Below, in pieces: positions 50-11,258 of a stretch of DNA of 11,279 nucleotides. The stretch lies in UHGV virus genome UHGV-0098134; one strand, 5' to 3'. This DNA is from a virus. The notes under the pieces were generated by a model. That model was not told where the DNA came from. It searched no databases and worked only from the letters and a program-made list of their open reading frames with translations. Position numbers and translations under genes: made by a program. How positions within the stretch are numbered: position 1 is the stretch's first letter; the number at the start of each line of letters is the position of its first letter.

Positions 50-2410
50 TTGGCCAACGATATTATTACCCAGCTTCAGGCGCGTAATGAGACGTTGACG
101 CAGGCAATAGCCCGTTACGGCTCACTCAACGCCAGAACATTGTTAGCTCTCTCTACTCAGCAAGCGACAGTTATCAAACTAACGCAGCGGCTTGCCGATT
201 CCGCTCTCCGCCTGGAGGAAAATAGCCGCAGCCGCGCTAATCTGATGGAGAAAACCCACACATTTGCCGGGCAATTTAGCAAAGTATTCAATGTTGAAGC
301 CCCCGACTGGAAGTTGCCGTATGAGTTCCAGGACAACATGGTCAATATGGCGACCAAAGGTGGGATGAATGATACAACTCGCGAGACGCTCAGCCTTAAT
401 CTGCGCGACTGGAGCATGGATTTTAACCAGCATCAGACCACCTTACAGAACGCAGCCCAAACGCTGATCGAAGGCAATTTGTCGTCGATACAGGATCTCA
501 ACCGTTATATGCCGGAGATCGCCAAAGCTGCCACCGCCACGCGCGAAAGTGCTGAAACATGGGCGAATGCCGCGCTCGCAACCCATGATCGACTGAATAT
601 TGTGCCAGAAAATTTCCACGTCGCGCAAAACATGATGTACGGCATTAGCAAAAGCGGTGGGCCTGCCGTTGCCGAGCAAACGCTGTGGATAGACAAATTT
701 GCAGGTAAAACCGGCGCTCAGGGTCTGGAAGGTATGGCTGAACTGACTGCCGCCATGCAGATCGCCATGAAAAACGGAGCCAGCGCCAGTGCGGCGGCGG
801 AGAATTTCGACCACTTTCTGCAAACCACCTTTTCGAAAAAGACCGATAACTGGTTCGCCAGCCAGGGCGTCGATCTGCAAGGCTCTCTGCTTGAACATCA
901 GCAAAACGGTATGGGTGTTAGCGAAGCCATGACTCATATCGTACAAATGCAGCTTGAGAAGATGAATCCGGCGATCCTAGACACCTTCAAACGCACTATG
1001 CAGATTGAAGATTTATCTGCTCGCAGCAATGCGCTGCAATCGATGGTGACGCAATTTAATCTGGGCGAAATGTTCGGCGATGCGCAAACGGTGGAATTCC
1101 TGGCACCTATGCTGGCGAATATGGAGGAATATCGCCAGTTAAAAACCTCTGCCATGCAAGCCACCAGCAAGAATCTGATTGATGCCGACTTTTCTGCGCA
1201 AATGGCCTCGCCCATTGAACAGACTAAAGCGTTACAGCTGGCGTTAAATGATTTATGGCTCAGCATTGGCTTGCAATTAATGCCGCTGATTGGCGAGCTG
1301 GCACAAAGCCTTACGCCGGTTATTCGTCAGTTCAGCGCCTGGCTACGTGAGCACCCGACACTGGTGCAAAACATCGCGAAAATCGTCGGGGCGATTTGGC
1401 TGTTTAACGGTGCGCTGAATGTTTTAAAGCTGGGCGCGAACCTCATCACCTCGCCGTTTATTCGTCTGGTCGATATCTTCCTGAAAGTCAAGGCAAGTCT
1501 GGCGCTCACAGGCGGGGCAAGTAAGATGCTATCAGCGGTTAAGTCATTGGGTGGCGGCGCAAAATGGCTAATGCAACTGCTTGGTCGTGGCCTGATTGGC
1601 GCACTGAAACAGGTAGGTCAGACCGTCTTCTGGTTGGGTAGGGTTTTATTGATGAATCCCATTGGTCTGGTCATCACTGCGATTGCGGGCGCTGCTTATC
1701 TGATTTGTCGCAACTGGGAGCCTATCTCAAGGTTCTTTTCGACCATCTGGCAACGTATCACCACGGCCTTTGACGGCGGCATTGCAGGAATTTGTCGGTT
1801 GATTCTCGACTGGTCACCGCTGGAGTTGTTCTATAGCGCCTTTTCCAGTGTGATGAATTGGTTTGGTGTCGAGATGCCTGCAAGTTTTAGCGAGTTCGGC
1901 AGCAATCTTCTGGGCAGTCTGGTTGACGGCATAATGAATGCCTTCCCCGCTCTGAAAGGCATTATTGATCAGGTAAAAAACGTCATCCCAGACTGGCTAA
2001 AAACCACGATGGGTATTAGTACAGAAGGATCGGCTACAGCTATTACAAGCACGACTAATACCGCATCCGTCTCCCCCGCGACCGTTGTTCCAGGCGTTGC
2101 CGGTGCGATTTTAACGCCTCCAGTGGGCAAACAACTCGCGCCATCCAGCAAAACGACAACGCCGCCATCGGCACCAGCGGCAAAACCCGCGTCGGCCTCT
2201 TTACCTGGTAAATCCGTAACCAAAGCGGCGACGCTACCTTCCCGTTCCTCAGGAAAAGTTCAGGTGAATTTTTCGCCACAAATTACCGCGCAGAGTAACG
2301 GACAAAACACCACTAAAGAGATTCAGAACGTGTTGACGATGAGTAAACGCGAACTGGAAAGAATGATTAACGATGTAATGGCGCAGCAGCAGCGCCGGGG
2401 GTATGCCTGA
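50..2410 (+). CDS. phage tail tape measure protein (P2 gpT-like)
   Basis: 786-aa ORF. Helical N-terminal half, central hydrophobic/Gly-rich segments typical of tape measure proteins, then a C-terminal Ser/Thr/Pro/Ala-rich tract. Lies immediately upstream of gpU/gpX/gpD-like genes. Start is TTG at 50, the first canonical start after an in-frame TAA at 11-13, so the true start is uncertain (next in-frame ATG at 245). Stop TGA 2408-2410 overlaps the next ATG. Confidence 0.8.
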   Translation: MANDIITQLQARNETLTQAIARYGSLNARTLLALSTQQATVIKLTQRLADSALRLEENSRSRANLMEKTHTFAGQFSKVFNVEAPDWKLPYEFQDNMVNMATKGGMNDTTRETLSLNLRDWSMDFNQHQTTLQNAAQTLIEGNLSSIQDLNRYMPEIAKAATATRESAETWANAALATHDRLNIVPENFHVAQNMMYGISKSGGPAVAEQTLWIDKFAGKTGAQGLEGMAELTAAMQIAMKNGASASAAAENFDHFLQTTFSKKTDNWFASQGVDLQGSLLEHQQNGMGVSEAMTHIVQMQLEKMNPAILDTFKRTMQIEDLSARSNALQSMVTQFNLGEMFGDAQTVEFLAPMLANMEEYRQLKTSAMQATSKNLIDADFSAQMASPIEQTKALQLALNDLWLSIGLQLMPLIGELAQSLTPVIRQFSAWLREHPTLVQNIAKIVGAIWLFNGALNVLKLGANLITSPFIRLVDIFLKVKASLALTGGASKMLSAVKSLGGGAKWLMQLLGRGLIGALKQVGQTVFWLGRVLLMNPIGLVITAIAGAAYLICRNWEPISRFFSTIWQRITTAFDGGIAGICRLILDWSPLELFYSAFSSVMNWFGVEMPASFSEFGSNLLGSLVDGIMNAFPALKGIIDQVKNVIPDWLKTTMGISTEGSATAITSTTNTASVSPATVVPGVAGAILTPPVGKQLAPSSKTTTPPSAPAAKPASASLPGKSVTKAATLPSRSSGKVQVNFSPQITAQSNGQNTTKEIQNVLTMSKRELERMINDVMAQQQRRGYA

Positions 2411-4609: not shown

Positions 4610-5311
4610 ATGAAAGGAGTAACCCGACAAACGGGGATTATCAGCGATATTGACGAAACCAGTATTCGGGTACGGGTCACTCTACCAGAGTGTGACAATC
4701 TGAAGAGCAACTGGCTTGCGGTACTTCAACGCAATTCCCAGGACAATAAAGACTACTGGCTACCGGATATGGGCGAGCAAGTGGAAGTTCTGCTGGACGA
4801 TAACGGTGAAGATGGCGTGGTGCTGGGTGCCGTTTATTCTACGGTTGACACCGCGCCTGTAGCCTCGCGCGACAAACGTTACGTCCAGTTTTCTGATGGC
4901 GCAGCGTTTGAATATGACCGCAGCACGCACCAGCTGACGATCAACGGCGGTATCGAGAAAATCGTGATTGAGGTTATCAACGGTACCTGCCTGACATCGC
5001 CCAACGTTGAGATTAAAGCCCAACAGGTCACCGTGACTTCCGATACCGTCGATGTTAAAGCGACCGATGTCAGCATCGACGCCACTAAGGTCGAGGTTAA
5101 AGCAGCAGCAGTGACGGTAGATGCGCCCATGAGCACCTTTACTGGCAACGTCACGGTAATGAAAAAACTCACCTGGCTTGGCGGGATGGCAAGAAGTGGA
5201 GGCATCGGTAACGCAGCCACGATAACCGGCAATGTCAACGTGATCGGCAACGTTCAGGCCAGCGGCGCATTGCAGGACAGCGGTGGCAACTCCAACCACC
5301 ATTCACACTGA
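4610..5311 (+). CDS. baseplate assembly protein V / central spike (gpV-like)
   Basis: 233-aa ORF. An N-terminal OB-fold-like region is followed by a run of alternating beta-strand residues (VEIKAQQVTVTSDTVDVKATDVSIDATKVEVKAAAVTVDA) typical of a spike beta-helix, and a His-rich C-terminus (NSNHHSH). Strong RBS AAGGAGG 7 nt upstream of the ATG. Confidence 0.8.
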   Translation: MKGVTRQTGIISDIDETSIRVRVTLPECDNLKSNWLAVLQRNSQDNKDYWLPDMGEQVEVLLDDNGEDGVVLGAVYSTVDTAPVASRDKRYVQFSDGAAFEYDRSTHQLTINGGIEKIVIEVINGTCLTSPNVEIKAQQVTVTSDTVDVKATDVSIDATKVEVKAAAVTVDAPMSTFTGNVTVMKKLTWLGGMARSGGIGNAATITGNVNVIGNVQASGALQDSGGNSNHHSH

Positions 5312-5316
5312 CTTTT

Positions 5317-5346
5317 AACCCGCCTGATGGCGGGTTTTCTCTTTTT
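5317..5346 (+). terminator. putative intrinsic terminator between gpV and gpW
   Basis: Perfect 8-bp inverted repeat AACCCGCC (5317-5324) / GGCGGGTT (5329-5336) with a 4-nt loop TGAT, followed by the T-rich tract TTCTCTTTTT. It begins 6 nt after the gpV stop. Confidence 0.55.
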
Positions 5347-5409
5347 AATCAATCAGTTTTCTAAATCGCTTTAATATCTCCACAGCCCGTTCAGGGCGAA
5401 AATACCCTC

Positions 5410-5769
5410 ATGAACACAAAAACACGCCCCTCAACGCTGCACTGGCAACCGGCCTTGCAGCGGCCTGAAGAATACGTCTGCGGGCTGGATGATATTCACC
5501 AGGCGATACACATCATTCTGCGCACACCGCGCGGCAGTGATCCTCACAGACCGCTGTTTGGCAGCAACTTGTGGCACTACATCGATTACCCCATCGAGCG
5601 GGCAATCCCGCATGTGGTACGGGAGTCGGTGGAAGCCATCCGCCAGTGGGAACCGCGCTGTCGGTTGCTGAAGGTGACACCAGTAATCGACGGTGAACAT
5701 CTGACGTTACGTGTGCAATGGCGCGCCGCTGACGGCGTTATCAACTCAACGGAGGTGTTATGGCGATAG
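5410..5769 (+). CDS. baseplate wedge protein W (GPW/gp25 family)
   Basis: 119-aa ORF of gp25/GPW size with a conserved-looking core (HQAIHIILRTPRGSDPHRPLFGSNLWHYID...AIRQWEPRCRL). The stop overlaps the downstream ATG, and GGAGG at 5751-5755 serves the next gene. Confidence 0.8.
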   Translation: MNTKTRPSTLHWQPALQRPEEYVCGLDDIHQAIHIILRTPRGSDPHRPLFGSNLWHYIDYPIERAIPHVVRESVEAIRQWEPRCRLLKVTPVIDGEHLTLRVQWRAADGVINSTEVLWR

Positions 5770-6868
5770 CCGAACCCAATTTTATTGACCGCGATCCTGC
5801 GCAAATTACCAGTGAGATGATTGCGCAATACGAAGATGCCAGTGGTAAAAAACTCTATCCGGCACAGGCTGAGCGGTTGCTCATCGACCTGTTTGCCTAT
5901 CGTGAAAACCTTGTACGCATCGCCATTCAGGAAGCGGCGAAACAAAACCTGGTCGCGTATTCCCGCGCGCCAATGCTGGATTATTTAGGGGAGTTGGTGG
6001 GAGTTCACCGTTTGCCTGCGCAGCCTGCAAAAACGACGTTGCAGTTTTCAGTGCGTATACCAGCAATATCCTGATTCCCCAGGGGACGCGGGCCAGTGCC
6101 TCTGATAGCGTGATGTTCGCCACCGATGAAGATGTTCTGCTTCCGGCCAGGAGTTTGCATATCGCCGTTCCTGCCACCAGCCTCGCAGCAGGTGAACAGG
6201 GCAACGGCTGGCAGCCTGCACAAATTAGCACACTGGTCGACAGGATTGGTCATTATGACATCAACGTAACCAACCTGACTGCGTCAACGGGCGGCTGCGG
6301 TGAAGAGAGCGATGACGCATTGCGCCAGCGTATCCAACTGGCACCAGAAAGCTTTAGTAATGCGGGCAGCTATGGCGCATACCGCTTTCATACGCTTTCT
6401 GTTAGCCAGTCGATTATTGACGTTGCAGTACTGGGGCCGGACGAGGGATTGCCAGAAGGCTGCGTGGAGATCTACCCGCTAACCCTGAACGGACTGCCAG
6501 GAATAGAACTGCTCGCGCAAATCGAACAGGAGGTTAGCAAGGAGAAAAAACGTCCGCTGACCGACAAAGTGAGTGCGAAATGCGCTCTTCGAGTGCCGTA
6601 TGAGATCCGTGCTCAGCTAACGCTGTTTACCACCGCCGATCAGGAGACAACGCTGGCTGCGGCGCGTAAAGCGATTAGCCTCTGGACGCAACAGCGGCAG
6701 AAACATCTGGGGCAGGACATTGTGCCAAACCAGATAATCAAAGTGTTACAGGTCGATGGCGTCTATGACGTTGCGCTGAATATGCCTACAAAACGTATTT
6801 TGCAGGCGCATGAATGGGCGGAATGCACTGCAATAGACGTCACGATTGCCGGAGTCAGCGATGGATAA
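5760..6868 (+). pseudogene. baseplate protein J (gpJ-like), interrupted by a frameshift
   Basis: The N-terminal 104 codons (5760-6074) end at TGA 6072-6074. The rest of the gpJ-like sequence continues in another frame, which is open from well upstream of 6000 through 6868 (ORF track starts it at GTG 6110). Frame 0 reads ...AKTTLQFSVRIPAIS*, and the other frame reads ...YTSNILIPQGTRASASDSVMFATDEDVLL... and later LRQRIQLAPESFSNAGSYGAYRFH, matching gpJ as recalled. A 1-nt deletion or 2-nt insertion near 6050-6068 is implied. Confidence 0.7.
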
Positions 6869-7577
6869 ATTGCTGCCACCGCCGCCGCTTGCCAGCGATG
6901 AGCGTTTTTCGATTCTGGCAAACATCGCCGCCGAGCGTTTTGCCCAACTCGATCTTACGGCGTTGATGGTTTATCTGGTCGACCTGGTTGATGCTTCGGC
7001 ATTACCAGCCCTTGCAGAACAATTTCACGTTCAGGGGCTGGAAGGTTGGTTATTTACCACCGATGAGCGGGAGAAACGCGAGTTAATTAAACAAGCCATT
7101 GAACTGCATAAATATAAAGGAACAATTTGGGCGGTACGGCGGGTGCTGGAAATACTTTCCTTACCCGGAACTATTTCAGAATGGTTTGAATATGGGGGAA
7201 GGGCTTATTTTTTTAAGGTAAATATTACACTAGAGGAAAAAGGATTAAATGAAGATGAATTCAATGCACTTATCACATTAATTCATGAATATAAAAATGT
7301 TCGTTCAAAGCTGGAAAGCATTGTTATTTGGCTTATTAATCGAAGCCCAATACCAGTTATTGGCAGCGCCATGCAAGGAGGGGAAGTCATTACAGTATTG
7401 CCTCCTGTTGCAGAAAGCCTCAGCCAGTCATCAGGAATATTTTTAGCGACGGGTTATTGTGTGGAGGAATATATTCAACTACTACCTTATCAACCCGATC
7501 GACTTACACAATCCCAACCGATGAAGGTCGGCACAGGATACTGGAGCACCGAAATTATGTCTGTATATCCGGAGTAA
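6861..7577 (+). CDS. baseplate/tail protein I (gpI-like)
   Basis: ORF with a gpI-like motif ([18 protein letters not shown], compare the P2 gpI core as recalled). Preferred start is ATG 6861 with GGAG at 6851-6854. The ORF track begins at TTG 6846. Overlaps the end of gpJ. Confidence 0.75.
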
Positions 7578-7579
7578 TA

Positions 7580-9160
7580 ATGGCAAGTGAATTTTTTACA
7601 ATATTAACTGCTGCTGGCAAAGCCAAAATTGCCTCAGCACTGGCCGAGCAAAAACAGATCCGTCTGCAAACTATGGTAGTTGGCGACGGTAATGGTAAAT
7701 ATATCGAACCGACAGAAAGTCAGACCAAAGTAGTCCATGAGGTCTGGCGTGGTCAGCTCAATACATTAAAAATTGCGCCAGATAATCCGGCCTGGGTTAT
7801 CGCAGAAGCGATTATTCCCGAACAAGTCGGAGGCTGGTATGTACGCGAAGTTGGGTTACTGGATACCGACGGCACGCTGGTCGCTATTGGTAAATTTCCG
7901 GAAACCTATAAGCCACGATTACCTGCGGGGGCCAGTAAGCAAATCGTTATACGCGCGGTCATGGAAGTCACCAATACAGACGCGGTGACGCTTTTGATCG
8001 ACCCTTCAGTCGTTGTGGCAACCAGGGAATATGTCGATGATGCGTTGAAAACACATCAGCAATCACGAAATCATCCTGATGCGACGCTGACACAAAAAGG
8101 TTTTACGCAGCTCAGTAATGCAACTAATAGCGATGATGAGACTAAAGCAGCCACGCCAAAAGCGGTAAAAACGGCATATGACCTGGCAAATAGCAAAGCC
8201 GCAACCAGTCATACTCATGCCTGGAATCAGATTACTGGTATCCCTGATGGTACACTGACGCAGAAAGGAGTCGTTAAACTTAACAACACAACAAATAGCA
8301 CCAGTACAACGGAAGCTGCAACGCCAAGTGCTGTTAAAGCAGCGATGGACAAGGCTATTGCTGCGGCACCGTCCAGCCATACCCATGCCTGGGGGCAAAT
8401 AACAGGTATCCCCGACGGTACGCTGACACAAAAAGGGGTCGTGAAACTTAATAATGCGACCAACAGCACCAGTACGACGGAAGCTGCAACGCCGAACGCG
8501 GTTAAGGCAGCGATGGATAAGGCTATTGCTGCGGAAAGCTGTCCTGTAGGGATGCCTATACCCTGGCCATCTGATTCTGTACCTTCAGGCTACGCTCTGA
8601 TGACTGGTCAGACATTTAATAAAACCTCCTATCCCAAACTGGCAATTGCATATCCATCTGGCGTTATTCCTGATATGCGCGGATGGATAATTAAAGGAAA
8701 ACCATCCAGTGGGCGCGCTATATTATCTACTGAACTGGATGGAGTTAAATCACATAACCATACGGGCAGTATTTCTAGTACCAATTTAGGGACAATAACA
8801 TCTACCTCTACGGACTTAGGAACAAAAACTACAGCTTCATTTAATCATGGAAGTAGAAATACAAGCACATCTGGAGAACATACACACCGAATACCAACTG
8901 ATGGTGCAGAAGGTAAAGATGGACCGTCTTTATGGAACAGCCCCAATTCAGATGAGAACTACAGAGAACCTACTGAGTCTGCTGGTAGTCATTATCATAG
9001 TATTACGATTGGCGCCCATGCACATACAATCGCACTGGGAAGTCATACACATAATATTGTGTTAGGTACACATAATCACTCAATTATCATCAATAACACT
9101 GGCAATACAGAAAATACTGTTAAAAACATTGCATTCAATTATATTGTGAGGCTTGCATGA
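7580..9160 (+). CDS. tail fibre protein (P2 gpH/Mu S-like N-terminus, lambda Stf-like C-terminal tip)
   Basis: The N-terminus [18 protein letters not shown]...VGDGNG...EVWRG is the conserved baseplate-attachment domain of P2/Mu-type fibres. The middle carries phage tail-fibre repeats (TLTQKG..L.NATNS...AATP.AVK). The C-terminus (PIPWPSD.VPSGY.LM.GQ.F.K..YPKLA.AYPSG..PDMRGW.IKGKP...HxH...[18 protein letters not shown]) closely matches the lambda Stf C-terminus as recalled. Start chosen at ATG 7580 (GGAG at 7571-7574), while the ORF track extends in frame to 7457 inside gpI. Confidence 0.9.
8210..8545 (+). repeat. in-frame tandem duplication (2 x 168 bp) of the tail-fibre repeat unit
   Basis: Two consecutive 56-codon units, both beginning CAT AC[T/C] CAT GCC TGG (8210 and 8378). 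They encode nearly identical peptides (HTHAW[N/G][20 protein letters not shown][T/A][12 protein letters not shown][S/N][12 protein letters not shown]..) but differ at many synonymous sites. A more diverged third copy lies upstream at about 8078-8209. Confidence 0.75.
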
Positions 9161-9864
9161 ATACTTTTACTTTTTCCGATAACGCACAAATTTTATCTGT
9201 TTTTAATTTTTCACCAGACACACAAGAATTTATTGGTGAGTCCAATGTATATATAGCACCAAACACTGGACTACCGAATTACTGCACATTAACACCACCA
9301 CCACAAAAAATTGCAGGTTTTACTTCTATATGGTCAATTAATAAATGGGAACTTATTGAAGATCATCGAGGCCAAACTGTTTATAACAAAGTTGATGGCA
9401 GCCAGATTATTATTAATAAATTGGGTCAATTGCCTGAAACTGTCACCATCATTTCCCCTACCAGTACTTTTGAGCGTTGGGATGGCGAAAAATGGCAGCC
9501 ATCAATTGATGATGCTAAACAGGCGAAATGTGCCGAAATCAAAACATTGCGCGACTCCATCACTACCGACTACATCATCATCAACGACAATTACTTCCAC
9601 AGTGATACAAGCAGCCGCATCCAACAACTCTCACTCACAAAAATGGGAGCGGAGAAAAAAATTCCGCCAGGTTTAATGTGGAAAACTAAAAATAATGGTC
9701 TGACTGAGTTAACCAACGAAATCGCTGCCCAGTTTGAATCCGTCACAATGGATCACGATATACGCTTGTTTGCCAACGCCCAACGCCATATCGCGGCGGT
9801 GGAAGCTCTGGACGATATTCAGTCGGTACTCGACTACGATTATTCAACAGGCTGGCAACCATGA
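9157..9864 (+). CDS. tail fibre assembly chaperone (Tfa; lambda Tfa-like N-terminal domain)
   Basis: 235-aa ORF. The N-terminal region ([17 protein letters not shown]...[11 protein letters not shown]) matches the conserved Tfa N-terminal domain as recalled from lambda Tfa (FIGEGDAYIPPHTGLP...LVEDHRGKTVY). ATG 9157 overlaps the fibre stop (ATGA). Confidence 0.85.
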
Positions 9865-10316
9865 GTAAAACTACAGTCTGGCTCGCTTGCTATAAAGGGC
9901 GAACAGAGCACCGGGTTATTGCGAGACTGGCTGACTGGCTTACACGCAAAATCACTCGCGGCAGTTATTCCCACTGTGAATTAGCCGTAGCACATGGAGA
10001 AAAGAGTTACCTTTGTTACTCCGCCTCTCTGCGCGATCGAGGCGTTCGTGGAAAGATAATGCCTTTACCGCCAGACAAGTGGGATATGCTGCCGCTCCAG
10101 GTCAGCCTTCAGGATGTAGAAGCGTTTTTCCGTAAACATGATGGCAAAAAATACGACTGGCGTGGAGCCTTAGGAATTATCACCGGCAATAAAGAACAGC
10201 GCGATCGCCTGTTTTGTAGCGAATTTTGTGCCGAATTTCTGCAATTAAAAGAAAGTTGGCGCTATTCCCCAAACCACTTGTACGCTTTAGTTAACAGTTG
10301 GCAATATCAACCATAA
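9861..10316 (+). CDS. hypothetical protein; possible permuted papain-like (LRAT/NlpC-P60-type) Cys/His enzyme
   Basis: 151-aa ORF translationally coupled to Tfa (ATGA overlap at 9861-9864), with host-like GC. The motifs GSYSHCELAVAHG (His) and, about 80 residues later, LFCSEFCAEF (Cys) resemble the YxHWAxY ... NCEHF arrangement of LRAT-like thiol acyltransferases/hydrolases. The family assignment is tentative. Confidence 0.55.
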   Translation: MSKTTVWLACYKGRTEHRVIARLADWLTRKITRGSYSHCELAVAHGEKSYLCYSASLRDRGVRGKIMPLPPDKWDMLPLQVSLQDVEAFFRKHDGKKYDWRGALGIITGNKEQRDRLFCSEFCAEFLQLKESWRYSPNHLYALVNSWQYQP

Positions 10317-10321
10317 ACTAC

Positions 10322-10346
10322 GCCGGGCTTCAAGCCCGGCTTTAAT
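10322..10346 (+). terminator. putative intrinsic terminator after the tail-fibre operon
   Basis: GC-rich perfect inverted repeat GCCGGGC (10322-10328) / GCCCGGC (10334-10340) with loop TTCAA, followed by TTTAAT. The U-tract is short, so it is marginal. Starts 6 nt after the TAA of the 151-aa ORF. Confidence 0.45.
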
Positions 10347-10529: not shown

Positions 10530-11258
10530 ATGTTTATTGTCTCAGTTCTCAGACAAAGTAAGGATTTCACTATTAAACATGCACAATGGCTTCACCAGCA
10601 GCTGGATGGGTATAATTCCATTTGCATGACGGATGCTTCAGAAATCAAAGGGGTTCAAACCACTCCATTACTGTATAATTGGCCAGGATGGTGGGCAAAA
10701 TTAGAGCTATTTAATCCCGAACATCCTGTTATCGGGAATGAAGATATACTTTATATTGATATTGATACTGTAATCGTCGGTGATATTACACAGTTTACTA
10801 AAATGAAAAAAGTAACATTACTGAACGACTTCTCGCAGCATGGTTCCAATGCTGCTCCTGCGACTGGAATAATGTTCATTCCTGCGGACGCCAAAAAACT
10901 TGTCTGGGAAGAGTTTATGAGATCGCCTGAAACTGAAATAAATTCAACCAGAAAGCCGCCATATCATGGGGATCAGGGATTTATCGGCAGAGTATGTCAT
11001 GACGCTGAAAGATGGCAGGATATTTTTCCAGGACAAATTATCAGTTACAAAGCGAATATAGCGACGCCTAAAATGATAGGCTTTAATCCTGACTTACACG
11101 ATGGTAAAGCAAACGGAGAATTGCCATCGGATGCAAAAATTGTATGTTTTCACGGTTCACCTCGTCCCTGGAACACAGCTCTCCACTGGGTTCCAGGTTT
11201 CAGCATAAAAAACACACTCTGCAGCAAATTTAAACAGCTCAAATATTCTCTTCGGTAA
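10530..11258 (+). CDS. putative nucleotide-sugar glycosyltransferase (GT-A fold, GT8-like motifs); low-GC cargo/moron gene
   Basis: 242-aa ORF with clearly lower GC than the tail genes. Motifs line up with GT8 enzymes such as LgtC and glycogenin as recalled: WAKLELF...EDILYIDIDTVIVGDI (hydrophobic strand plus DxD), GDQGFIG (compare QDQDILN), and C-terminal KIVCFHGSPRPW (compare HxxGxxKPW). Separated from the tail operon by a terminator and an AT-rich promoter-like region. Confidence 0.5.
   Translation: MFIVSVLRQSKDFTIKHAQWLHQQLDGYNSICMTDASEIKGVQTTPLLYNWPGWWAKLELFNPEHPVIGNEDILYIDIDTVIVGDITQFTKMKKVTLLNDFSQHGSNAAPATGIMFIPADAKKLVWEEFMRSPETEINSTRKPPYHGDQGFIGRVCHDAERWQDIFPGQIISYKANIATPKMIGFNPDLHDGKANGELPSDAKIVCFHGSPRPWNTALHWVPGFSIKNTLCSKFKQLKYSLR

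What the first reader, a model, noticed from the sequence alone, without database searches (positions are those of the whole stretch)
5760..6868. Baseplate J gene disrupted by a frameshift
The gpJ-like sequence is split between two frames. Frame 0 reads ...TTLQFSVRIPAIS then TGA at 6072-6074, while the continuation (...YTSNILIPQGTRASASDSVMFATDEDVLL...) is in a different frame that is open throughout the region. gpJ is an essential baseplate wedge component, so a real frameshift would make this tail module non-functional (defective prophage or decaying tailocin). A sequencing or assembly indel is the alternative. The junction is not an obvious homopolymer or slippery heptamer, which argues against programmed frameshifting.
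Basis: seen in the sequence. Interest (0 to 1): 0.5.

Follow-up and report, generated by a model that had tools for sequence, protein, structure and literature searches.

The report
Seven-base deletion breaks baseplate gene J
A 7-base deletion has broken the baseplate gene J in a head-less phage-tail gene cluster of an Escherichia fergusonii-type gut bacterium whose tail-tube gene was already knocked out, so this is ordinary gene decay and not a new mechanism.

Summary
The gpJ-like gene starts at 5760, reaches TGA at 6072-6074, and continues in the -1 frame to 6868. The cause is a 7-bp deletion (GGTCGTC/TCGGTCG, bounded by a 2-nt TC microhomology) at 6048-6050. About 195 complete E. coli genomes, many E. 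fergusonii genomes and 80 species-representative genomes all carry one uninterrupted gene of about 371 codons.

The window is a low-coverage (3.3x) ENA gut-metagenome contig of E. fergusonii type. A second assembly has the same deletion. A third assembly ends exactly at the junction.

The gene sits in a tail-only cluster between lysC and yjbD: Mor regulator, lysis genes, sheath to fibre, no head or integrase. This cluster is the orthologue of the Salmonella "Def4" remnant.

Intact alleles are under strong purifying selection (J dN/dS 0-0.07). In this lineage the tube gene, 0.8 kb upstream of the window, already carries W80*. The sister isolate has intact J but a nonsense codon in gpD. All six derived coding substitutions in the lineage are non-synonymous.

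The best reading is a real secondary hit in a cluster that was already dead. An artefact remains possible (about 10-15%). Programmed frameshifting is excluded. Interest is low.

The parts
5410..5769 (+). gpW/gp25-like baseplate gene, intact (119 aa). Its stop overlaps the J start.
   Evidence: Pfam GPW_gp25 on the called gene. The exact protein is listed in 8807 blocks of the assembly collection.
5760..6074 (+). N-terminal fragment of the gpJ-like baseplate gene: 98 residues that match the intact protein, then RIPAIS out of frame, then TGA at 6072-6074.
   Evidence: Translation. Pfam Baseplate_J profile positions 1-32. Identical to residues 1-98 of the intact 371-aa protein P0019.
6048..6050 (+). 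Deletion junction. Seven bases (GGTCGTC, equivalently TCGGTCG) present in all intact copies are missing between TTTTC and AGTG. Placement is ambiguous by the 2-nt microhomology TC at 6048-6049.
   Evidence: Alignments to CE10, 980-2, LWY24, GCA_027722805.1 and ten other loci. None of 195 E. coli genomes matches the junction without a 7-nt gap.
6025..6044 (+). Inverted repeat CTGCAA-N8-TTGCAG followed by TTTT, directly 5' of the junction. It is a possible slippage-promoting context; that role is inferred only.
   Evidence: Flagged by the terminator-like scan. It is present in intact alleles too.
6050..6868 (+). Remainder of J (native codons 100-371), now in the -1 frame relative to the start codon. 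It ends at TAA 6866-6868.
   Evidence: Translation. Colinear with P0019. The stretch 185-369 aligns to R2-pyocin baseplate protein PA0618.
6113..6868 (+). Longest ATG-initiated ORF of the C-terminal part (M121-G371, 251 aa), called as a separate gene by gene finders. No Shine-Dalgarno-like sequence is visible upstream.
   Evidence: Gene call in L004/L006. Pfam Baseplate_J profile positions 51-254. The 20 bases upstream were read directly.
6861..7577 (+). gpI-like tail gene, intact (238 aa). Its start overlaps the end of J, so its translation is normally coupled to J.
   Evidence: Pfam Tail_P2_I. The identical protein is widespread.
6230..6230 (+). Derived non-synonymous substitution in J (A160T, GCA to ACA), private to the strain that carries the deletion.
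   Evidence: Comparison with L005, L104, L106 and L108, polarised with outgroups.

Best explanation
The gpJ-like baseplate wedge gene of a chromosomal, head-less contractile-tail cluster has been turned into a pseudogene by a real 7-bp deletion. The cluster is the Escherichia counterpart of Salmonella Def4 and is anatomically an R-type-tailocin-like element. The deletion probably arose by replication slippage or microhomology-mediated loss between two TC dinucleotides next to a small inverted repeat.

Translation from ATG 5760 ends at 6072-6074 after 98 native residues. The conserved C-terminal two thirds, which in the R2 pyocin homologue PA0618 build the baseplate wedge, are out of frame and lack their own ribosome-binding site. 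No functional J is therefore made, and translational coupling into gpI is lost.

The deletion is a secondary hit. In this E. fergusonii-type lineage the tail-tube gene had already acquired a TGG-to-TGA nonsense codon, selection on the cluster was relaxed, and further lesions accumulated independently: the 7-bp deletion in J here and Q228* in gpD in the sister isolate.

What is shown: the deletion, its absence from relatives, the shared tube nonsense codon, the excess of non-synonymous changes, and the tail-only gene content. What is inferred: the mutational mechanism, loss of particle production, the polar effect on gpI, and that the allele is real in the DNA and not an artefact of the assembly.
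For: Deletion and relatives:
- 7-bp gap relative to intact copies.
- All 195-197 complete E. coli genomes carrying the element have the undeleted sequence and an annotated 371-aa gene.
- Homologues in 80 species-representative genomes match as one stretch covering residues 1-371.

Support from other assemblies:
- The same deletion is in a second assembly, ERZ28597959, which is 100% identical over 15,519 nt.
- A third assembly ends exactly at the last base shared by the two alleles.

Evidence for decay in this lineage:
- Tube W80* is shared by the three metagenome contigs and by isolate GCA_027722805.1, which has intact J but gpD Q228*.
- The nearest fully intact relatives differ by only 7 substitutions. 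All 6 coding ones are non-synonymous or nonsense and derived in this lineage.
- Between intact elements the counts are 172 synonymous to 39 non-synonymous (Fisher p about 1e-5).
- J dN/dS among intact alleles is 0-0.07.

Nature of the cluster:
- Its content is Mor, holin, SLT, sheath, tube, TMP, U, X, D, V, W, J, I, fibre and chaperone, lying between lysC and yjbD with no head or integrase genes.
- The closest solved protein is PA0618 of the R2 pyocin baseplate.
Against: The contig has only 3.3x k-mer coverage (record name). The three ENA assemblies may all come from one sample, so independent read-level support is not shown. The deleted allele was not found in JGI metagenome contigs or IMG/VR, nor in any complete E. 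coli genome. The one closely related isolate has intact J. Loss of function is inferred from sequence alone, and no one has shown that the intact cluster makes particles.
Confidence: 0.8

Rival explanations
1. The 7-bp gap is an assembly or sequencing artefact of a low-coverage metagenome, and the real strain has an intact J.
For: k-mer coverage is 3.3x. The nearest isolate, which differs by only two substitutions (D Q228* and J A160T) besides the 7-bp gap over 15.5 kb, has intact J. A MEGAHIT contig breaks exactly at the site. The allele was not found in any other collection.
Against: Short-read errors are mostly substitutions or homopolymer indels (established knowledge), whereas this is a clean 7-bp loss at a non-homopolymer site bounded by a microhomology. 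Two differently named assemblies give the identical junction. The only other defect on the contig, tube W80*, is confirmed by an independent isolate genome, so the contig is otherwise accurate. It matches L006 at 100% and L005 at 99.94%.
Confidence: 0.13
2. The sample holds a mixed population in which both the deleted and the intact allele are present, so pseudogenisation was caught in progress. This is compatible with the best explanation and refines it.
For: Contig k119_53779 (ERZ27272258) is 100% identical to the window contig for 10,290 nt and ends at ...GCAGTTTTC. That is precisely where the two alleles diverge, as expected at an unresolved de Bruijn bubble.
Against: No reads are available. 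Whether that assembly comes from the same sample is unknown. The downstream contig could not be retrieved.
Confidence: 0.35
3. The two-frame arrangement is functional: either a programmed -1 ribosomal frameshift fuses the halves, or the two halves work as separate subunits.
For: A -1 shift near G-UUU-UCA would give ...LQFFSAYTSN..., only two residues shorter than native (read from the sequence).
Against: There is no X-XXY-YYZ heptamer in frame. The downstream 96 nt folds less stably than its shuffles (z = +1.39). Relatives that are 99.9% identical have one continuous ORF. No homologue is naturally split. No Shine-Dalgarno sequence precedes ATG 6113. The 22 residues between the fragments lie inside the Pfam domain.
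Confidence: 0.02
4. J nt 290-338 is a mutational hotspot, or inactivation of J is selected, for example to stop costly lytic tailocin production.
For: Three different frameshifts lie within 49 nt in different backgrounds: the 7-bp deletion here, +1 C at the 3' edge of the same 7 bases in E. fergusonii GCA_900450565.1, and an 8-bp deletion (GGGGACGC) 41 nt downstream in ERZ28589751. An inverted repeat abuts the site.
Against: Two of the three were found through look-ups that can only return lesions near this position: one required the same 251-aa C fragment and the other the same 90% cluster as the N fragment. The one J frameshift found without that bias is at nt 793 in an A6 run. The GCA_900450565.1 assembly also has a frameshifted tube gene and a truncated core gene, rluF, which suggests assembly errors.
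Confidence: 0.07

Closest known systems
Salmonella enterica 'Def4' prophage remnant (LT2 STM4196-STM4219; J = STM4202)
   Same: It occupies the same chromosomal slot (pgi-lysC | Mor ... fibre | yjbD-rluF) with the same gene order from Mor through holin, SLT, Gp37, sheath, tube, TMP, U, X, D, V, W, J, I and fibre. J is 87.6% identical in protein. The name Def4 and its status as a remnant come from PMC5322425 and PMC3591323.
   Different: The Salmonella copy has gtrA/gtrB/gtrC inserted in the V-W gap and an intact J. The window copy lacks gtr, carries an extra 242-aa ORF at the far end, and has J broken.
R2 pyocin baseplate protein PA0618 (Tri1a), PDB 6U5B/6U5K
   Same: It is the closest solved homologue (E = 3e-26). 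The N-terminal segment 5-92 and the C-terminal 185-369 align. It is part of a head-less contractile tail encoded with its own lysis genes.
   Different: PA0618 is 295 aa and lacks the middle of the protein, about 90 residues, where the frameshift begins. Killing activity has been demonstrated for pyocins but not for this cluster.
Baseplate J of BcepMu-like transposable phages (BcepMu, Klebsiella phage KP12, Escherichia phage PhiKM)
   Same: These are the nearest complete phages: 52-57% protein identity over the full 371 residues, as a single ORF. The Mor regulator and Gp37 also point to Mu-like ancestry.
   Different: They are complete phages with heads and transposition genes. The window element has only tail, lysis and regulator genes.
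Tail-gene pseudogenes that disable prophages, e.g. Gifsy-2, ST64B and Gifsy-1 in S. Typhimurium D23580
   Same: Point lesions in genes for replication and tail assembly, and in one case a promoter SNP, make an otherwise complete-looking element non-viable (PMC5322425, read).
   Different: Those are full prophages. Here the element is a long-domesticated tail-only cluster, and the J lesion follows an earlier tube nonsense mutation.

Membership tests
Baseplate_J (gpJ / gp47 / gp6-like wedge protein, Pfam PF04865) | Significant match to the family profile | tested here: met
   The intact relative scores 212.6 bits (cut-off 21.1). The window fragments score 26.3 and 157.3 bits and cover profile positions 1-32 and 51-254.
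Baseplate_J (gpJ / gp47 / gp6-like wedge protein, Pfam PF04865) | Position in the conserved V-W-J-I-fibre gene order | tested here: met
   Gene calls and Pfam hits in L004 and in more than 20 related loci.
Baseplate_J (gpJ / gp47 / gp6-like wedge protein, Pfam PF04865) | One continuous ORF encoding the whole domain (functional member) | tested here: not met
   A 7-bp deletion and a stop at 6072-6074. The window copy is a pseudogene of the family.
Programmed -1 ribosomal frameshift site | Slippery heptamer X-XXY-YYZ in the zero frame before the stop | tested here: not met
   The codons from 6036 to 6074 are ACG TTG CAG TTT TCA GTG CGT ATA CCA GCA ATA TCC TGA, and none forms such a heptamer.
Programmed -1 ribosomal frameshift site | Stable downstream stimulatory structure | tested here: not met
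   MFE is -21.2 kcal/mol against a shuffle mean of -25.8 (z = +1.39). 188 of 200 shuffles fold at least as well.
Programmed -1 ribosomal frameshift site | Two-frame arrangement conserved in relatives | tested here: not met
   Relatives at 99.9% identity, and all more distant ones, have a single ORF.
R-type tailocin (head-less contractile tail bacteriocin) | Complete contractile-tail module with regulator and lysis cassette, and no capsid, packaging, replication or integration genes | tested here: met
   The annotated E. coli, E. fergusonii-type and Salmonella loci run from Mor to the fibre chaperone and are flanked directly by lysC and yjbD. This holds for intact relatives. The window copy has lost tube and J.
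R-type tailocin (head-less contractile tail bacteriocin) | Maintained by selection at a fixed chromosomal locus across species | tested here: met
   The locus is the same in Escherichia and Salmonella. J dN/dS is 0-0.07, and the cluster as a whole shows 172 synonymous to 39 non-synonymous differences.
R-type tailocin (head-less contractile tail bacteriocin) | Particles produced and bactericidal | not testable with these tools
   No experimental report was found in the searchable library. The published label is 'prophage remnant Def4'.
Def4-type remnant of Salmonella/Escherichia | Synteny with STM4198-STM4219 between lysC and yjbD | tested here: met
   The Salmonella Infantis SARB27 locus, annotated with LT2 locus tags, shows the same order and flanks. 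The literature assigns STM4196, 4198, 4205 and 4213 to Def4.

The most novel reading that the evidence does not exclude
The Def4-type tail cluster is an active, selectively maintained tailocin of Escherichia and Salmonella. E. fergusonii lineages are repeatedly switching it off, with J nt 290-338 acting as a preferred target. The contig break at the junction would then record both alleles co-existing in one gut, that is, loss of a bacterial weapon caught in progress.
Probability: 0.08. Interest if true: 0.5.

Novelty: new member of a known kind. Interest (0 to 1): 0.15.

Why it matters
The finding itself matters little: it is one more strain-specific pseudogene in a phage-derived cluster. It serves as an annotation flag, meaning the two J pieces should be called one pseudogene and not two genes. 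It is also a clean small example of how decay proceeds once a first hit (tube W80*) relaxes selection.

The context is more interesting than the finding. The same tail-only cluster sits at lysC-yjbD in Escherichia and Salmonella, is under strong purifying selection, and swaps fibre modules. That pattern fits a working tailocin, yet the literature treats it only as the remnant 'Def4'. Intact E. fergusonii or E. coli copies would be the ones to test for killing activity.

Tried and rejected
1. Scanning species-representative genomes for the junction with a 0-7 nt variable gap found nothing. The representatives apparently lack this allele, so it gave no information on the source.
2. Exact-junction scans of JGI metagenome contigs and IMG/VR found nothing. 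The positive control with the intact allele found 8 contigs.
3. I tried to recover the contig downstream of the MEGAHIT break by looking up the gpI and fibre proteins. Both proteins are too common and only the longest contigs are read, so that contig was not reached.
4. Literature searches for a described tailocin at this locus in E. coli or E. fergusonii returned only a different ST131 P2-like prophage (PMC9205054).
5. Programmed frameshifting was considered and rejected (and direct reading of the sequence).
6. A mutational hotspot was considered but not accepted, because of ascertainment bias.
7. No structure prediction was run. The PDB sequence match and the Pfam coordinates already place the break.

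Full report
**Observation.** An ORF starts at ATG 5760, overlapping the stop of the preceding gpW-like gene. It reads MAIAEPNF...TTLQFSVRIPAIS and stops at TGA 6072-6074. The sequence ...SAYTSNILIPQGTRASASDSVMFATDEDVLL... continues in the frame of 5762, which is open from 5906 to TAA 6866-6868. Both pieces hit Pfam Baseplate_J colinearly, at profile positions 1-32 and 51-254. An intact relative covers 1-254 in one stretch.

**What the lesion is.** A megablast of 5300-7000 against 5,426 complete E. coli genomes found the region in 197 of them at 98-99% identity. The record span was 1708 nt for a 1701-nt query in each of the 30 records listed. In the two loci fetched, CE10 and 980-2, the gene is annotated as one 1116-nt, 371-aa 'baseplate assembly / baseplate J/gp47 family' protein.

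- Alignment shows intact GCAGTTTTCGGTCGTCAGTGCG against window GCAGTTTTCAGTGCG. This is a clean 7-bp deletion bounded by a TC/TC microhomology at window 6048-6050.
- None of 195 E. coli genomes matches an 81-nt probe across the junction without the 7-nt gap.
- It is the only indel in a coding region of the contig that is not a multiple of three, apart from paired alignment artefacts. The tape-measure gene has a 15-nt in-frame difference that is shared with intact relatives.
- The N fragment keeps 98 native residues.
- Residues 100-371 are out of frame. This stretch includes 185-369, which aligns to the R2-pyocin baseplate protein PA0618 in PDB 6U5B (E = 3e-26).
- No Shine-Dalgarno-like sequence precedes ATG 6113.

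**Where the window comes from.** An exact-protein look-up shows the window is bases 5595-16873 of ENA metagenome contig ERZ1303408 NODE_1179_length_16873_cov_3.297.

- The last ORF (10530-11258, 242 aa) is identical to an E. fergusonii protein found on 139 contigs.
- The flanking pgi-lysC of the nearest isolate is only 92.5-92.8% identical to every E. coli genome.
- The host is therefore of E. fergusonii type, not E. coli.

**Real or artefact.** Coverage is low (3.3x).

- A second assembly, ERZ28597959 (SAMEA3708500) scaffold_1214, is 100% identical over 15,519 nt including the junction.
- A third, ERZ27272258 k119_53779, is 100% identical for 10,290 nt and ends at ...GCAGTTTTC. That is exactly the last base shared by the deleted and intact alleles. 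An unresolved de Bruijn bubble would look like this, so it hints that both alleles were present in the reads.
- Whether the three assemblies come from independent samples is unknown.
- The allele is absent from JGI metagenome contigs and IMG/VR. The intact allele is present in 8 metagenome contigs.
- A 7-bp loss at a non-homopolymer site is not a typical short-read error (established knowledge).
- The contig's only other defect is confirmed by an independent isolate, as described under lineage history.
- I put a real allele at about 0.8-0.85 and an artefact at about 0.13.

**The element.** In E. coli LWY24 the cluster lies directly between lysC and yjbD. It consists of a Mor activator, holin, SLT transglycosylase, a membrane protein, Gp37, sheath, tube, tail chaperone, tape measure, gpU, X, D, V, W, J, I, fibre, a DUF4376 chaperone and a small ORF. 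It has no head, packaging, replication or integrase genes.

- The E. fergusonii-type loci are the same, with an added zeta-toxin gene and the 242-aa ORF.
- In Salmonella Infantis SARB27 the same order sits in the same slot. It is annotated with LT2 tags STM4219 to STM4198, and J (STM4202) is 87.6% identical.
- The literature calls this region the prophage remnant Def4 (PMC5322425; PMC3591323).
- The nearest complete phages are BcepMu-like, at 52-57% identity.
- Homologues in 80 species-representative genomes all match as a single stretch covering residues 1-371. J is therefore never naturally split.

**Selection.** Among intact alleles J has dN/dS of 0-0.07. Over ten genes of the cluster the counts are 172 synonymous to 39 non-synonymous. 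Fibre and chaperone modules are exchanged between genomes, with fibres of 526, 589 and 608 aa. This is the anatomy and evolutionary behaviour of an R-type tailocin, but no functional test was found in the literature.

**Lineage history.** All three metagenome contigs and isolate GCA_027722805.1 carry TGG-to-TGA (W80*) in the tube gene, 792 nt upstream of the window start.

- The isolate differs from the window contig by only two substitutions plus the 7 bp. Its J is intact, but gpD carries CAG-to-TAG (Q228*).
- The nearest fully intact relatives (CP055850.1, L106, L108) differ by 7 substitutions. Six are in coding sequence and one is intergenic.
- All 6 coding changes are non-synonymous or nonsense: sheath I99M, tube W80*, TMP V747A, V V19I, V G195R and J A160T.
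- All 6 are derived in this lineage when polarised with outgroups, and there are 0 synonymous changes.
- Fisher p is about 1e-5 against the background ratio, counting the sister isolate's gpD Q228* as a seventh lineage change.
- The simplest history is: tube knocked out first, constraint relaxed, then independent second hits, J here and D in the sister strain.
- The J frameshift is therefore not what disabled the module. It is evidence that the module was already dispensable.

**Recoding rejected.** There is no X-XXY-YYZ heptamer in the 13 codons before the stop. The 96 nt downstream fold less well than shuffles (z = +1.39). Relatives at 99.9% identity need no frameshift.

**Other J lesions.**

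- E. fergusonii GCA_900450565.1 has a +1 C at the 3' edge of the same 7 bases.
- Metagenome contig ERZ28589751 (SAMN13277309) has an 8-bp deletion, GGGGACGC, 41 nt downstream.
- Both of these were found through look-ups that could only return lesions near this position.
- An E. coli genome found without that bias has a -1 A in an A6 run at nt 793.
- A hotspot is therefore not shown. An inverted repeat, CTGCAA-N8-TTGCAG, does abut the junction.

**Verdict.** It is a strain-specific 7-bp-deletion pseudogene of gpJ in a Def4-type, tailocin-like tail cluster that had already lost its tube gene. This is ordinary gene decay and of low interest in itself. The conserved cluster around it is the more interesting object.

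Noticed in passing
L004 3447-3449 (792 nt upstream of window position 1; outside the window): The tail-tube gene carries TGG-to-TGA (W80*). The change is shared by all three metagenome contigs and by isolate GCA_027722805.1. Every other copy examined has TGG at this codon, including NCTC L018, whose tube gene is broken by a separate +1 frameshift further on. It predates the J deletion.
   Followed up: yes
L005 14192 (equivalent to window 4241, gpD codon 228): The sister isolate GCA_027722805.1 has CAG-to-TAG in gpD and an intact J. This is an independent second hit in the same tube-defective lineage.
   Followed up: yes
L007 end (equivalent to window 6049): MEGAHIT contig ERZ27272258 k119_53779 is identical to the window contig for 10,290 nt and stops exactly at the base before the two alleles diverge. 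This suggests both alleles were in the reads.
   Followed up: partly
L018 10001-11117; L100 2495-3602; L105 about 8894-10008: Other J frameshifts were seen: +1 C at the same site (NCTC E. fergusonii), an 8-bp deletion 41 nt downstream (a different metagenome sample), and -1 A in an A6 run at nt 793 (E. coli CM129827.1). The clustering of the first two may reflect how they were found.
   Followed up: partly
window 5312-5409 (hairpin at 5317-5336): A strong terminator-like hairpin with a T-run follows gene V, and a 100-nt gap precedes W. In Salmonella the gtrA/gtrB/gtrC O-antigen glucosylation genes are inserted exactly in this gap.
   Followed up: partly
whole window versus L005 98-3389: The tail cluster is 96-99% identical between this E. 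fergusonii-type copy and the E. coli copies. The adjacent core genes pgi-lysC are only 92.5-92.8% identical. Either the element moved between species recently or it is unusually constrained.
   Followed up: no
window 10530-11258: This 242-aa ORF has no Pfam hit and lies between the tail cluster and the RlaP nucleotidyltransferase/slipin pair. Proteins at 90% identity or more come from E. fergusonii and E. albertii, and the ORF is absent from the E. coli copies fetched.
   Followed up: no
window about 9065-10340: The fibre C-terminus, its DUF4376 chaperone and the 151-aa ORF drop to 85% identity with E. coli copies. Other genomes carry 589- or 608-aa fibres with shorter chaperones. This looks like exchange of receptor-binding modules.
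   Followed up: no
window 2186-2192: The tape-measure gene is 786 aa here versus 791 aa in E. coli, a 15-nt in-frame difference. It is shared with fully intact E. fergusonii relatives, so it is a natural allele and not damage. In E. coli CE10 the tape-measure gene is annotated as a pseudogene with an internal stop.
   Followed up: partly
L019 (JAEZCC010000043.1): A MAG labelled 'Bacillota bacterium' contains a 6.7-kb contig with a 99% identical J. It is most likely a mis-binned Escherichia contig.
   Followed up: no
L005 3534-4463: A zeta-toxin-domain gene lies between lysC and the Mor regulator in the E. fergusonii-type isolate. It is absent from the E. coli LWY24 locus.
   Followed up: no
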